Part shown: piece after piece, positions 24,025 to 55,376 of the stretch
How positions within the stretch are numbered: position 1 is the first letter of the stretch
How the letters are laid out: each line of letters starts with the position of its first letter
Assembly (NCBI GenBank): GCA_963699155.1
Contig: OY969414.1
Span: 715,757 to 779,756, forward strand
Origin: an uncultured Chlamydiales bacterium
GTDB taxonomy: Bacteria > Chlamydiota > Chlamydiia > Chlamydiales > JAAKFR01
Reading direction: 5' to 3'
Length of the DNA: 64,000 nucleotides
Position numbers and translations under genes: made by a program
Notes under the pieces: model-generated
Database searches by the model: none
Seen by the model: the letters and a program-made list of their open reading frames with translations, nothing else
What the model was told of the DNA's origin: nothing

Positions 24025-25016
24025 GCCCGTTCGAAGGCAAGAGTGGCGAGGCATTAGTCACGTAAGATGTAACCTGAGAGGCTTTCACTGTCACAGGGTT
24101 TGACCAGCACCCGAAAGTGCGGGACCGCACGGAGTGCCCGTTCGAAGGCAAGAGTGGCGAGGCATTAGTCACGTAAGATGTAACCTGAGAGGCTTTCACT
24201 GCCACAGGGTTTGACCAGCACCCGAAAGTGCGGGACCGCACGGAGTGCCCGTTCGAAGGCAAGAGTGGCGAGGCATTAGTCACGTAAGATGTAACCTGAG
24301 AGGCTTTCACTGCCACAGGGTTTGACCAGCACCCGAAAGTGCGGGACCGCACGGAGTGCCCGTTCGAAGGCAAGAGTGGCGAGGCATTAGTCACGTAAGA
24401 TGTAACCTGAGAGGCTTTCACTGCCACAGGGTTTGACCAGCACCCGAAAGTGCGGGACCGCACGGAGTGCCCGTTCGAAGGCAAGAGTGGCGAGGCATTA
24501 GTCACGTAAGATGTAACCTGAGAGGCTTTCACTGCCACAGGGTTTGACCAGCACCCGAAAGTGCGGGACCGCACGGAGTGCCCGTTCGAAGGCAAGAGTG
24601 GCGAGGCATTAGTCACGTAAGATGTAACCTGAGAGGCTTTCACTGTCACAGGGTTTGACCAGCACCCGAAAGTGCGGGACCGCACGGAGTGCCCGTTCGA
24701 AGGCAAGAGTGGCGAGGCATTAGTCACGTAAGATGTAACCTGAGAGGCTTTCACTGTCACAGGGTTTGACCAGCACCCGAAAGTGCGGGACCGCACGGAG
24801 TGCCCGTTCGAAGGCAAGAGTGGCGAGGCATTAGTCACGTAAGATGTAACCTGAGAGGCTTTCACTGTCACAGGGTTTGACCAGCACCCGAAAGTGCGGG
24901 ACCGCACGGAGTGCCCGTTCGAAGGCAAGAGTGGCGAGGCATTAGTCACGTAAGATGTAACCTGAGAGGCTTTCACTGCCACAGGGTTTGACCAGCACCC
25001 GAAAGTGCGGGACCGC
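24025..25016. repeat. Tandem array of nine 111-bp units (structured element, locus 1)
   Basis: Units start every 111 bp from 24025 to 24913. They are identical except for a T/C site (pattern T,C,C,C,C,T,T,T,C). No unique spacers. Confidence 0.95.
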
Positions 25017-25331
25017 GCCGAAGGCGCAGCCGAGTGCTGAAGCCGCGGGTAATTGATAAATTAATTCGAGAAACGTCCAAACTTCAGGTAGGCCCTACGG
25101 ACCTTGGGATATCCTACATATCATGCCGCTTGCGATCTTTCATATCCTTGTTTCTTTCTTTTCTTTCCCTCGCTGAGACTCTCGGCTGCTGGAGCAGCCT
25201 CGGTCTCAGGCGCGGGTGGGGGGCGCCGAAGGTCGCTCGCGGCCCTCTTCGGGCCGCTGCCACTCCCAACGGCGCCAATTGCCGAGCGGCTATCCTCAAC
25301 ACCCAATTCAGGAATCTTCTCTTCCATGTGC

Positions 25332-25480
25332 AAAGCCTCGTCTGAGAAGCCCCAGAAGGACTCAGATAGAAATAAGATGGTCAGCGTTAGATGATCTTCT
25401 GCCGAGTGACCACAAAGTACGTTTTGTTTGGGATTTTGTAGGACAAATTAAAGTCAGCTCCAAGGCTAGGATAATAAGTA
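25332..25480 (+). pseudogene. Second, shorter IS1182-like transposase relic (empty-site version)
   Basis: KPRLRSPRRTQIEIRWSALDDLLPSDHKVRFVWDFVGQ is uninterrupted and bracketed by the inverted arms. Confidence 0.65.
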
Positions 25481-25630
25481 GTGGCTCGGCAATTGGCGCC
25501 GTTGGGAGTGGCAGCGGCCCGAAGAGGGCCGCGAGCGACCTTCGGCGCCCCCACCCGCGCCTGTGACCGAGGTGCAGCCGAGTGACGAAGCCGGGGCAAT
25601 TAATTAATTTGGCAATGTCCAAACTCAGGT

Positions 25631-26803
25631 TTATAGCCTGACTAGATAGGAGACGAGGGAGATGGCGAAGGCGGCGAAGACAGGGGTGCGGCGCATGCGC
25701 ATCTCGTAGAGTTTATGGAGAATGGTGAGGATCGAGAGGATGATGAGGCCGGGGCAGAGAATCTGGAGGATTGGCGAGAGCATCTGTGCGATGCCCATGA
25801 AGCCGAGATTGGCGATCGCCATGGAGAGGCCGAGAGAGAGGAGGATGGCAACATGGATGCTTCCCTTACTCCTCATGAAATCTTTGTGGATGTACTCGGC
25901 GGAGATCACAGCGATGGGGATGGCGGTGGTCAGACAGGCCATCGACACAGCGATGCAGGAGAAGAGGGCACCGGTTGGGCCGAGAAGGTAGCGAGAAACG
26001 ACGGCAAGCCGCTCCTCGGGTTCATGAGCTTCAAGAACGGGAGTATAGAAGGAGGCGAGATAGGTCAGACCGACATACATTGCGGCCAGAAGGGCGCCTG
26101 CGATGACACAGGCTTTGACCATTTTCTTAAAGACCTGGCGCTTCGATTCGGCTGTGGGTTCTCCTTTCTGATCAGAGATAAAATAGGAGAGTACAAGGGG
26201 GGCAAAGATGAAGGAAGCAATCAGATCGAGCGTGTTATAGCCCACATTTAAGCCATAGAAGAAAGAGTCTTTGTTGCTGATGTCAACGGTTACTTGAGCG
26301 GGTGGATTGATAAAACCTGTTATCAAAATCGATCCTAAAGCAATCAAGAGAAGGGGACAGAGATAAAGACCCATAATCTCTATAATTTTATGCTTTTTGA
26401 CGGTGAAGAGATAGACGAGGCCGCACGCCAAGAAGCTAAAGAGGGCCAATGAGATAAATTCGGGCATGTAAGGTTTGAGAGTGGCATGAGCCAAAGTGAT
26501 CAAGCGAGGAATCGATCCAAAGGGTCCCAAGATTGCCTGAATGAGAAAAACAAGCACAATTCCCGATTTTTTGCCGGTCTGTCCGAAGAATTTCCGGTAA
26601 TCTCCCTCAAAGAGCATGATGGCCAATAAGCCCAAAAGTGGAAGACTCACACCGGTGATCAGCAGCCCGAGCATGGCGTAGAAGTTGGTATTCCCTGCAT
26701 AGCCTCCAAGAATCAGCGGCCAAATGAGGTCGCCAGCACCAAAAAACATCGAAAAGAGGGCTAAGCCTGCTGCGATGACACCCTTTTGATTCTTCAGAGA
26801 CAT
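25631..26803 (-). CDS. brnQ: Branched-chain amino acid transport system II carrier
   Basis: GLALFSMFFGAGDLIWP, GPFGSIPR and ACLTTA. About 12 TM segments. Confidence 0.9.
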   Translation of the reverse strand: MSLKNQKGVIAAGLALFSMFFGAGDLIWPLILGGYAGNTNFYAMLGLLITGVSLPLLGLLAIMLFEGDYRKFFGQTGKKSGIVLVFLIQAILGPFGSIPRLITLAHATLKPYMPEFISLALFSFLACGLVYLFTVKKHKIIEIMGLYLCPLLLIALGSILITGFINPPAQVTVDISNKDSFFYGLNVGYNTLDLIASFIFAPLVLSYFISDQKGEPTAESKRQVFKKMVKACVIAGALLAAMYVGLTYLASFYTPVLEAHEPEERLAVVSRYLLGPTGALFSCIAVSMACLTTAIPIAVISAEYIHKDFMRSKGSIHVAILLSLGLSMAIANLGFMGIAQMLSPILQILCPGLIILSILTILHKLYEMRMRRTPVFAAFAISLVSYLVRL

Positions 26804-26944
26804 ATCTTAATTCCTAGTTTAACTGCTAAATTTATACCTCTTTAATGAAATAAAATCAATAATTTGAATGGGTTTGAATGGATTTTATCGAAGTACTAAT
26901 AGACCATGAGCGGGTAGACGCCGAGCGGGTGTCGCTGATTTTTT

Positions 26945-54530: not shown

Positions 54531-54561
54531 GAGTTGCAAACCCTAAACTAGGAAAATACCT

Positions 54562-55035
54562 ATGGCAGCAGCAGTCAGTTTACAAAAAGCCCATGCCCAA
54601 TTGGCCGTCGTTCAGCAGCAAGAAAAAGTCAATGCTCTTCAAGGCAGAATTTCCGTTCTTTCGTCGAATATAGATAGGTTGACTCAGGAACGTGCAGTTG
54701 CACGACAAGCCGTAGATGCCGCAGCAGTGATCAAGAGCGCTGCCTACCGAAGCAAAAAAACTTTTATCGATGCCCATTCCGCAAAGAGGTATGGGTGTAC
54801 CTATTTGAAAAAGTTGAAAGATGAAGAACAGCAGCAGTTAAATCAGCTAAATGGTAACTTCATACAGGCGGTAAAGGCATGGCGCAAGTTTGTGGATCAA
54901 CAAGCTAACATAGTTATTGCATTGGGTGATGCCGTCAGGACTTCTGATGCAGAAACTCCCACTGCAGTCTCAGCTTTGAATATCGAACGAGCTCGACTAG
55001 AAGTGCTGAGAAACCAGTTAGCGCTTTTTAAATAA
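54562..55035 (+). CDS. Coiled-coil hypothetical protein, paralogue 2
   Basis: Shares MAAAVSLQK, RISVLSSN, LKKLK.EEQ and ERA.L.VL..QLALFK with the upstream gene. Confidence 0.8.
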   Translation: MAAAVSLQKAHAQLAVVQQQEKVNALQGRISVLSSNIDRLTQERAVARQAVDAAAVIKSAAYRSKKTFIDAHSAKRYGCTYLKKLKDEEQQQLNQLNGNFIQAVKAWRKFVDQQANIVIALGDAVRTSDAETPTAVSALNIERARLEVLRNQLALFK

Positions 55036-55066
55036 TCGAGGACAAAGAACCCTCATGCCCCCATCA

Positions 55067-55154
55067 GGAGGAGTGTCCGAGCGGCCGAAGGAGCACGCTT
55101 GGAAAGCGTGTATACGCTAACCCCGTATCGTGGGTTCGAATCCCACCTCCTCCG
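55067..55154 (+). tRNA. tRNA-Ser (GGA)
   Basis: GGAGGAG/CTCCTCC acceptor stem, CACGC-TTGGAAA-GCGTG anticodon arm, long variable arm, GGTTCGAATCC. Confidence 0.97.
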
Positions 55155-55272
55155 ACAGGAAGACCGGCGTATGCCGGTTTTTCTTTTTACGGAGGAGAGC
55201 GAGTGAAGAGGTTCACTCGCGAGTGGGTTTCGAAGGGTTGAGCGATGCCGCACGGCAGCGCGCCTAACGGCG

Positions 55273-55376
55273 TGGCCCCGCTCTGCCTGGTGCTGGTTAA
55301 ACCGTGAGGTAGTGAGAGTATTTATGTTTTCATATTGCAGGAGTAATGCCTCGCCACTCCTGCCTGCGAACGGGGA
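55273..55376 (+). repeat. Single diverged copy of the ~105-bp structured element (locus 3), inverted relative to the arrays
   Basis: GGCCCCGC...CTGGTTAAACC...AGTGAGAG...TAATGCCTCGCCACTCCTGCCTGCGAACGGGG is colinear with the reverse complement of the array units. Confidence 0.85.

What the first reader, a model, noticed from the sequence alone, without database searches (positions are those of the whole stretch)
24025..55376. Dispersed and tandemly amplified ~105-bp structured element at three loci: candidate new ncRNA or mobile nucleic-acid motif
Seen: three diverged variants (nine copies at 24025-25016, four at 40571-41022, one at 55273-55376) align colinearly. Read on the strand that is + at locus 3, all share an outer CCCG...GAACGGG pairing, CTGGTYAA, a central stem capped by AGTGA(A/G)A and the block TAATGCCTCGCCACTC(T/C)TGCCT. 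The central stem differs in sequence but still pairs (CCTGTGGC/GCCTCTCAGG, ACCTGAGTC/GAATCTCCGGT, CGTGAGGTA/TATTTATG with G.U pairs that work only on this strand). In loci 2 and 3 the conserved block sits in a GCAGGA/TC(T/C)TGC hairpin; this pairing is weak in locus 1. Periods of 111 and 112 bp argue against coding constraint. Established: UGAAA/UGAGA loops resemble T-loops of structured RNAs. Inference: this is an unannotated structured RNA (possibly self-cleaving) or ssDNA element that moves and amplifies as a unit. I could not match it by eye to a known ribozyme or riboswitch.
Basis: partly seen in the sequence, partly recalled or inferred. Interest (0 to 1): 0.85.

Follow-up and report, generated by a model that had tools for sequence, protein, structure and literature searches.

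The report
REP-derived mobile DNA cassette, chlamydia
The repeat is real but is probably not a new RNA: it looks like a small, fixed-length piece of selfish DNA with a tiny hairpin at one end, scattered through this environmental chlamydia and a close relative, and probably copied by a known kind of hairpin-cutting transposase.

Summary
The 9+4+1 copies exist. They are 14 of 50 full copies at 35 intergenic loci in the genome. The proposed inner RNA stems fail: covariation is at shuffle level, Rfam gives nothing, and a diverged family in same-genus genome G001 keeps the ends and the length but not the interior. The genome encodes an intact REP-associated tyrosine transposase (RAYT). The 3' half of its REP matches the element's hairpin end, and one G001 copy sits inside such a REP. 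Best reading: a tag-less, REP-derived, BIME-like cassette that moves as single-stranded DNA and is amplified head-to-tail; the enzyme link is inferred, not shown. The scan noted this element earlier at another locus of this genome (e1-7714928), where it was left unexplained.

The parts
24023..25027 (-). Locus 1: nine head-to-tail units, period 111, including the outer terminal hairpin
25015..25027 (-). Outer terminal mini-hairpin of array 1: 5-bp stem, TTC loop on the minus strand (GAA triloop on plus)
24127..24137 (-). First of eight internal junction hairpins of array 1 (4-bp stem, TCC loop on minus, GGA on plus); on the plus strand the junction spells GGAGTGC, the start of the RAYT's REP
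40566..41024 (-). Locus 2: four head-to-tail units, period 112, downstream of tRNA-Phe and in opposite orientation to it; bounded by an 11-nt direct repeat (40566-40576 and 41014-41024) that spans the C^T at the loop start
41009..41021 (-). Outer terminal mini-hairpin of array 2 (5-bp stem, TAC loop on minus, GTA on plus); closest G000 form to the 3' half of the RAYT's REP
55260..55376 (+). Locus 3: single copy downstream of tRNA-Ser
55260..55273 (+). Terminal hairpin of copy 3, a 4-nt-loop variant (TAAC; GTTA on the other strand), shared only with the copy behind a second tRNA-Ser
55275..55280 (+). Left arm of the 6-bp closing stem
55371..55376 (+). Right arm of the closing stem (5 of 6 pairs in this copy)
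55284..55289 (+). Left TGCCTG motif (usual in G001; replaced by a TTTC variant in about half of the G000 copies)
55361..55366 (+). Right TGCCTG motif, the best conserved block in both species
40381..40455 (+). tRNA-Phe next to locus 2 (context)
55067..55154 (+). tRNA-Ser next to locus 3 (context); a hairpin followed by a T-run at about 55163-55188 lies between tRNA and element (seen by eye; not listed by the scan)
23864..23990 (+). Host repeat on one side of array 1 (a different, GGAG-tagged hairpin family); an inverted copy lies at about 25167-25291 (context)

Best explanation
A non-coding, non-autonomous mobile DNA cassette of about 111-113 nt (a 30-nt shorter class exists in G001) derived from the REP of the genome's own RAYT (TnpA-REP, a single-strand HUH/Y1 endonuclease). 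SHOWN: one end is a tag-less copy of the REP's 3' half (mini-hairpin, 1-3 nt, CCC); a 6-bp stem pairs the two ends; TGCCTG motifs sit inside each arm; the interior is free in sequence but nearly fixed in length; copies are insertions into other hairpin repeats, with imprecise ends that fall in the same few bases of the tandem junction. INFERRED: on single-stranded DNA the closing stem brings the two ends together, the RAYT cuts and rejoins near the hairpin (every loop starts at C^T, the dinucleotide that characterised RAYTs cut), the unit leaves as a small circle or is re-copied by rolling-circle-like extension, and it integrates at REP-like hairpins that share GGG(CGC) with the junction. This is the excision/integration and amplification model published for E. 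coli BIMEs. Once two units exist, slippage or unequal recombination can lengthen the array. No host function is needed; it is most likely selfish DNA.
For: Insertion: empty alleles at 17 of 35 loci (two further listings still held part of the element and were dropped); left breakpoints 3-5 nt before the loop in 17 of 34 loci with a seed match, right breakpoints 4-9 nt after the G of GAACGG in 15 of 32. Hairpin: 41 of 50 copies and 26 of 35 loci, against a shuffled mean of 0.03 and maximum 2; 13 stem/loop variants, all four loop middles; those hairpin types occur away from the element only twice; also in 13 of 18 G001 matches. Closing stem: three compensated forms, 6 of 6 pairs in 9 of 9 G001 copies, inner four pairs in 40-42 of 42 G000 rows. 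Length: 101-103 nt arm to arm in G000, 101-102 in 9 and 71-72 in 4 of the 13 measured G001 copies, tandem period 111 in both species. RAYT: NF047646 87.7 bits over cut-off 80, PDB 4ER8 E 8e-6, flanked by GGAG-tagged REPs. A pattern for the hairpin end hits 14 element copies, 2 RAYT REPs and nothing else in 2.4 Mb. In G001 one copy lies inside a tagged REP with the REP's 3' half repeated (L251). One downstream module is joined at the same position to two REP 5' arms and to two element right ends (4 of 13 occurrences). In the RAYT's clade 20 of 54 REP tags have such a triloop hairpin just upstream (shuffled mean 1.0) and RAYT loci carry tandem arrays of period 112, 113, 123, 160 and 201. Chemistry and model: PMC3333891, PMC8266576.
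Against: No G000 copy carries the GGAG tag before its hairpin (0 of 36 distinct copies), and the tag is essential for E. coli TnpA-REP. Only 5 of 35 loci have a GGAG-tagged hairpin within 300 nt, against 10% of 200 other short repeats. None of the 35 loci flanks the RAYT gene (nearest about 20 kb). The RAYT's own REP family is small (about 8 copies) beside 50 elements. G001's only RAYT match is broken (genome 74% complete), G003 has an intact RAYT and no element, and 0 of 23 other RAYT-bearing genomes match model R2. End-to-end direct repeats of 5 nt or more occur in only 11 of 29 loci, so many junctions do not map to one cut site. The pattern was written after seeing both sequences. The loop rule (TNC, i.e. 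GNA on the other strand) points to folding of the opposite strand from the one that matches the REP, so the active strand is unresolved. No lagging-strand bias (13 versus 22 loci).
Confidence: 0.6

Rival explanations
1. Passive mosaic module: the cassette was once captured next to a REP, but now spreads without a dedicated enzyme, by hitch-hiking inside host repeats, gene conversion and slippage at short GC-rich homologies.
For: Identical copies share their flanks (three loci with the same left flank and body); partial copies arose at 6-7 nt microhomologies; hairpin type is uncorrelated with body sequence (Spearman -0.08 to 0.10), showing shuffling; ends are imprecise; G001 has no intact RAYT.
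Against: Does not explain compensated stems in two species, a fixed length over a saturated interior, or conserved end motifs; insertions in many unrelated host repeats and unique flanks.
Confidence: 0.18
2. Same anatomy, but moved by another single-strand enzyme (an unrecognised HUH protein, a visiting phage or plasmid Rep, or primase-assisted copying from the GNA mini-hairpin on the opposite strand).
For: C-GNA-G loops are exceptionally stable in DNA and occur at phage and plasmid priming sites (PMC13037366); the element lacks the RAYT tag; family searches can miss genes, as the Y1 search did.
Against: No Y2, IS110, resolvase, TnpB, DUF559 or reverse transcriptase match in G000 ([its control was silent], 32, 65, 66, 24, 30); the three tyrosine recombinases are XerD-like, XerC-like and a third, weakly matching one, none over the integron-integrase cut-off; the element's end is homologous to the RAYT's REP.
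Confidence: 0.13
3. Structured non-coding RNA or self-cleaving ribozyme, amplified through an RNA stage.
For: The closing stem covaries and could form in RNA; 5 of 35 loci lie within 200 nt of a tRNA gene, about 1% expected; mean folding z of full-length copies is mildly negative (-0.5 to -1.0).
Against: No Rfam match at gathering score or by E-value in 17 copies (best E 2.6); inner stems at shuffle level; interior 32% identical between species with no common fold; triloop rule favours DNA; no reverse transcriptase match; no fixed orientation to neighbouring genes.
Confidence: 0.05
4. Classical MITE of a resident DDE insertion sequence.
For: Short, non-coding, conserved ends and variable middle (entropy 0.40/0.74/0.35); the genome holds several multi-copy IS families.
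Against: The inverted repeat is 6 bp, subterminal and changes in compensated fashion; no constant target duplication; the profile finds no full-length copy other than the 50 intergenic ones, so none is the end of a transposase-bearing element.
Confidence: 0.04

Closest known systems
REP/BIME with TnpA-REP (RAYT) of E. coli (Ton-Hoang et al., PMC3333891; Corneloup et al., PMC8266576; classes in Quentin et al., PMC6006769)
   Same: Intergenic, multi-copy, mosaic, locally amplified head-to-tail; one RAYT gene flanked by tagged hairpins; C^T at junctions; hairpin-bulge-hairpin at the tandem junction; end homologous to the local REP.
   Different: One tag-less half-REP per unit instead of two inverted tagged REPs; linker of nearly fixed length with its own conserved end motifs and a covarying closing stem; loop rule C-TNC-G.
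REPINs and GTAG-tagged repeat families (Di Nocera et al., PMC3733652, passages read; REPIN papers seen as search listings only)
   Same: Non-autonomous hairpin elements tied to a RAYT; degenerate tags are described (GYAG, GYRG).
   Different: No inverted REP doublet forming one long hairpin; the unit is asymmetric.
HINE/DINE-1 non-autonomous Helentrons of animals (Thomas et al., PMC4067079, passages read)
   Same: Architecture only: subterminal inverted repeat plus a terminal stem-loop at one end, no target modification, tandem repeats.
   Different: Eukaryotic, 12-15 bp subTIRs, TT target, Rep/Helicase partner; no homology implied.
IS200/IS605 ends and their gene-less derivatives (IS608 model; features from PMC3333891 introduction; the name PATE is recalled)
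   Same: Single-strand, hairpin-guided movement without target duplication.
   Different: Hairpin at one end only; the resident Y1 protein has the class 2 motif YxxxNP, not the IS200 motif; no TnpB match; no strand bias seen.

Membership tests
REP/BIME-RAYT system | RAYT (class 2 Y1) gene in the genome with HUH and YxxxNP motifs | tested here: met
   G000:2227110-2227709; NF047646 87.7 bits, cut-off 80; 4ER8 E 8e-6; NHYH and YVLQNP. Pfam Y1_Tnp is under cut-off, 17.1 < 23.
REP/BIME-RAYT system | RAYT gene flanked by tagged hairpins | tested here: met
   Three GGAG-tagged hairpins at the gene's ends; the tag pattern occurs in 24 of 30 loci of the clade.
REP/BIME-RAYT system | Each unit carries a GTAG/GGAG-type tag 0-2 nt 5' of its hairpin | tested here: not met
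   0 of 36 distinct G000 copies on the REP-matching strand; on the other strand only NNAG-type words, never GGAG, precede the closing arm. One G001 copy has the tag because it lies inside a REP.
REP/BIME-RAYT system | BIME = two inverted REPs separated by a linker | tested here: not met
   Units are asymmetric and head-to-tail.
REP/BIME-RAYT system | Sequence kinship of the repeat with the local REP | tested here: met
   Hairpin-end pattern: 14 element, 2 REP, 0 other hits in the genome; insertion inside a REP in G001.
REP/BIME-RAYT system | Intergenic, multi-copy, locally tandem-amplified | tested here: met
   35 loci, 5 of them arrays; between called genes, the 5 enclosing ORFs being short shadow frames by my reading.
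REP/BIME-RAYT system | Cleavage and strand transfer by the cognate RAYT on ssDNA | not testable with these tools
   Needs purified protein.
Structured ncRNA / small ribozyme | Match to a curated RNA family | tested here: not met
Structured ncRNA / small ribozyme | Covarying internal helices and conserved core | tested here: not met
Structured ncRNA / small ribozyme | Transcription and self-cleavage | not testable with these tools
   No RNA holder was listed, which is no evidence either way.
MITE (DDE-mobilised) | Terminal inverted repeats shared with an IS, and constant target duplication | tested here: not met
   6-bp subterminal covarying stem; variable 1-11 nt end repeats.
IS200/IS605 gene-less derivative | Hairpins at both ends and an IS200-type TnpA | tested here: not met
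   Hairpin at the right end only where it is a tandem or repeated junction; Y1 protein is class 2; no TnpB.
HINE/DINE-1 (Helentron) | Rep/Helicase partner sharing subTIRs | not tested
   Cited as a structural analogy only.

The most novel reading that the evidence does not exclude
A miniature rolling-circle parasite of a domesticated RAYT: a tag-less cassette that folds its own ends together with a covarying 6-bp stem, leaves the chromosome as a single-stranded circle of fixed size (about 111 or about 81 nt), rebuilds a REP-like hairpin-bulge-hairpin only at the circle or tandem junction, and homes to REP-like mini-hairpins. The fixed length over a freely evolving interior would then reflect a geometric rule of RAYT chemistry that has not been described; the same 112-113 nt period beside a RAYT gene in a distant chlamydial genome fits such a rule.
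Probability: 0.3. Interest if true: 0.72.

Novelty: new variant of a known kind. Interest (0 to 1): 0.47.

Why it matters
How REP sequences spread is still called poorly understood (abstract of PMC8266576), and the circle-excision and amplification steps for BIMEs are models (PMC3333891). This element gives defined, testable substrates: clean filled and empty alleles, junctions in two species, two size classes and a single candidate enzyme. It also extends RAYT-REP systems to environmental chlamydiae (RAYT relatives in 25 of 401 genomes searched); my literature searches listed no paper on this. If the enzyme link fails, it remains an ordinary lineage-specific repeat.

Tried and rejected
2) Rfam at gathering score over the window (2 tRNAs only) and by E-value on 17 of the 36 distinct copies (2 chance hits). 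3) Coding: no frame kept, no codon-position pattern. 4) First conclusion 'genome-specific' from BLAST (0 of 40 relatives) and model R1 (0 of 28 family genomes; 0 of 150 order genomes) was wrong: G001 holds a diverged family, found by a hairpin pattern and then 18 matches with model R2. Other diverged families may be missed the same way. 5) First conclusion 'no Y1 transposase' was a false negative, corrected by a motif scan and NCBIfam; the other negative family searches carry the same risk, and the control was silent. 6) Pattern scans of genome (3 hits), metagenome (4) and viral contigs (46) gave only core matches without the rest of the element. The right-end pattern is multi-copy only in G000 (31) and G001 (8); 16 other genomes of 400 had one hit each, as did G010 in the family search; I looked at two of these single hits (G010, G012) and they were not elements. 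7) No RNA holder listed. Four DNA runs of one study, possibly the source campaign, gave sparse contigs, no joints, and 141-142 nt contigs carrying the tandem junctions of loci 1 and 2; this speaks against a pure assembly artefact but cannot tell array from circle. 8) Integron reading of the recombinase at G000:2111747: it is XerD-like. 9) IS607 reading (GG core): no resolvase. 10) Replication-strand bias: none. 11) RAYT relatives in viral contigs: none. 12) Alignment A3 had one row in the wrong orientation and was replaced by A4; end anchors were off in a few rows and counts are taken. 13) No structure or complex was predicted; the question is DNA chemistry. 14) The Minerva preprint (10.64898/2026.09.22.753630; outline and passages) describes other repeats, not this one; its supplements and those of the other papers were not read and could list related repeats.
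Full report
Observation. The window comes from a 2.40-Mb single-contig genome, G000, which earlier notes describe as an environmental chlamydia (not tested by me beyond the kinship labels of the searches). 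The three loci are as described: period 111 with 8.9 copies, period 112 with 4.1 copies, and one single copy, all colinear. A profile from the three variants finds 50 full copies, 36 distinct, at 35 loci: 30 singles and arrays of 2, 2, 3, 4 and 9. All lie between called genes, in no fixed orientation to them; 5 of 35 are within 200 nt of a tRNA gene where about 1% of the genome is. Short-read contigs from four soil DNA runs of one study carry the tandem junctions of loci 1 and 2.

The RNA reading. Rfam finds only the two tRNAs and nothing above chance in 17 copies. No reading frame is kept. Expression could not be examined: no RNA holder was listed.

What is conserved. Its stem changes in compensated fashion and all four middle bases occur. 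GCGNAGC-type mini-hairpins are far more stable as DNA than as RNA (review PMC13037366; abstract start and passages read). These hairpin types belong to the element: they occur elsewhere only twice. Empty alleles of the host repeats exist for 17 of 35 loci. Left breakpoints cluster at the foot of the hairpin (17 of 34) and right breakpoints a few bases after GAACGG (15 of 32); both map to the same short stretch of the tandem junction (the seed matching allowed two mismatches and some rows are chance, so this is noisy). The unit is therefore about 113 nt and includes the hairpin.

A second species. BLAST and a G000-only model missed all relatives. A hairpin pattern then showed two hits 111 nt apart in same-genus genome G001, which proved to be a diverged family; a two-species model finds 18 matches there, none in G002 or G003, one weak hit (E 0.03, not an element on inspection) among the other 25 family genomes, and none in 23 RAYT-bearing genomes. 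Between species the ends are 68% and 59% identical and the interior 32%, yet the alignment is almost free of gaps. Arm-to-arm length is 101-103 nt, with a second class of 71-72 nt in G001. TGCCTG lies inside both arms.

The likely enzyme. The Pfam Y1 search was negative, but a motif scan of called proteins found a 199-codon ORF between rplI-like and ispE-like genes (neighbour names recalled from the sequences) that scores over the cut-off for REP-associated tyrosine transposase and matches TnpA-REP 4ER8. It is flanked by GGAG-tagged REPs, each preceded by a small hairpin. Relatives occur in 25 of 401 genomes of the phylum; 20 of 54 of their REP tags have a GNA or TNC triloop just upstream, and their loci hold tandem arrays of period 112, 113, 123, 160 and 201. 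The 3' half of the G000/G001 REP (GCGC-loop-GCGC-CG-CCC) is the element's hairpin end: a pattern for it hits 14 element copies, 2 REPs and nothing else in the genome (pattern written after the fact). In G001 one copy lies inside a tagged REP with the REP's 3' half on both sides (L251). Every element loop begins at C^T, the dinucleotide cut by characterised RAYTs, and TGCCTG resembles the E. coli iREP-I site (PMC3333891, introduction and passages read; PMC8266576, abstract start and passages). By the table of PMC6006769 (sections 13 and the first part of 15 and passages read) the protein is class 2; I did not place it in a subclass.

Against that link. The element lacks the tag; tagged hairpins are no commoner near it than near other repeats (5 of 35 against 10%); it does not flank the RAYT gene; G001's RAYT is broken and G003 has a RAYT, with another REP type, and no element. 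End repeats of 5 nt or more occur at 11 of 29 loci only. The GNA rule points to one strand and the REP kinship to the other. Partial copies and the lack of correlation between hairpin type and body show that ordinary recombination also reshuffles copies.

Mechanism. Shown: anatomy, insertion into hairpin repeats, tandem amplification, kinship with the REP. Inferred: pairing of the ends in single-stranded DNA, RAYT cutting and rejoining near the hairpin, a circular or rolling intermediate, integration at sites that resemble the junction, as in the published BIME model. I put this at 0.6, passive spread at 0.18, another single-strand enzyme at 0.13, an RNA at 0.05, a MITE at 0.04.

Placement. 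It works like a BIME unit, but is not a canonical REP or BIME: the tag and the inverted pair were tested and are absent. Its outline, a subterminal inverted repeat plus one terminal stem-loop, recalls HINE/DINE-1 elements (PMC4067079, passages read) as an analogy only. PMC3733652 (passages) and searches listed no description of this family; the library is limited to open papers and no supplements were read. Verdict: real, not a new RNA, a new variant of the REP/BIME-RAYT kind; interest 0.47.

Noticed in passing
G000:C1:2227110-2227709 (L148:1611-2210, minus strand), outside the window: Intact RAYT/TnpA-REP gene flanked by GGAG-tagged REPs; missed by the Pfam Y1_Tnp genome search but over the NCBIfam cut-off. 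Relatives in 25 of 401 phylum genomes.
   Followed up: yes
L158 (G144:C1:3255088-3258609), L163, L166, L181: RAYT loci in other chlamydiae carry tandem arrays with periods 112, 113, 123, 160 and 201; G144 has 462 matches to an 11-nt GNA mini-hairpin pattern.
   Followed up: partly
window 23864-23990, 25167-25291, 25476-25600, 22010-22079: A second repeat family with GGAG-T then a 6-7 bp GC stem, 23 intergenic copies genome-wide; brackets array 1 in inverted orientation. Possibly another REP-like family.
   Followed up: partly
window 23993-24982 (minus): 329-codon open frame through array 1 (37-codon repeat); the frame is stopped in 13 of 36 distinct copies, so probably a shadow frame.
   Followed up: partly
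window 22220-23652: Two-ORF transposase (HTH_Tnp_1; HTH_21 plus rve) just upstream of array 1.
   Followed up: no
G000:C1:2249376-2249729 and 1919521-1919862, plus five fragments: GxxExxY (PDDEXK_3) nuclease genes; an abundant separate repeat family with up to 69 copies of its commonest word lies beside the first.
   Followed up: no
L239/L243 (G001:C40) and window 55160-55260: The same host module that lies behind tRNA-Ser in G000 carries an element in G001 too, but at a different position: independent insertions into one target region.
   Followed up: partly
L214 1749-2194 (G001:C15): A 141-bp tandem repeat (3.2 copies, 98%) directly beside the 111-bp tandem of the element.
   Followed up: no
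window 55442-55506, 62721-62879, 27922-28004: Long near-perfect inverted repeats unrelated to the element.
   Followed up: no
L237/L245 (G001:C23) interior: An 11-nt word of the G001 interior is the reverse complement of a word in the G000 interior, hinting at an old inversion or fold-back inside the cassette; seen by eye, significance not computed by a call.
   Followed up: no
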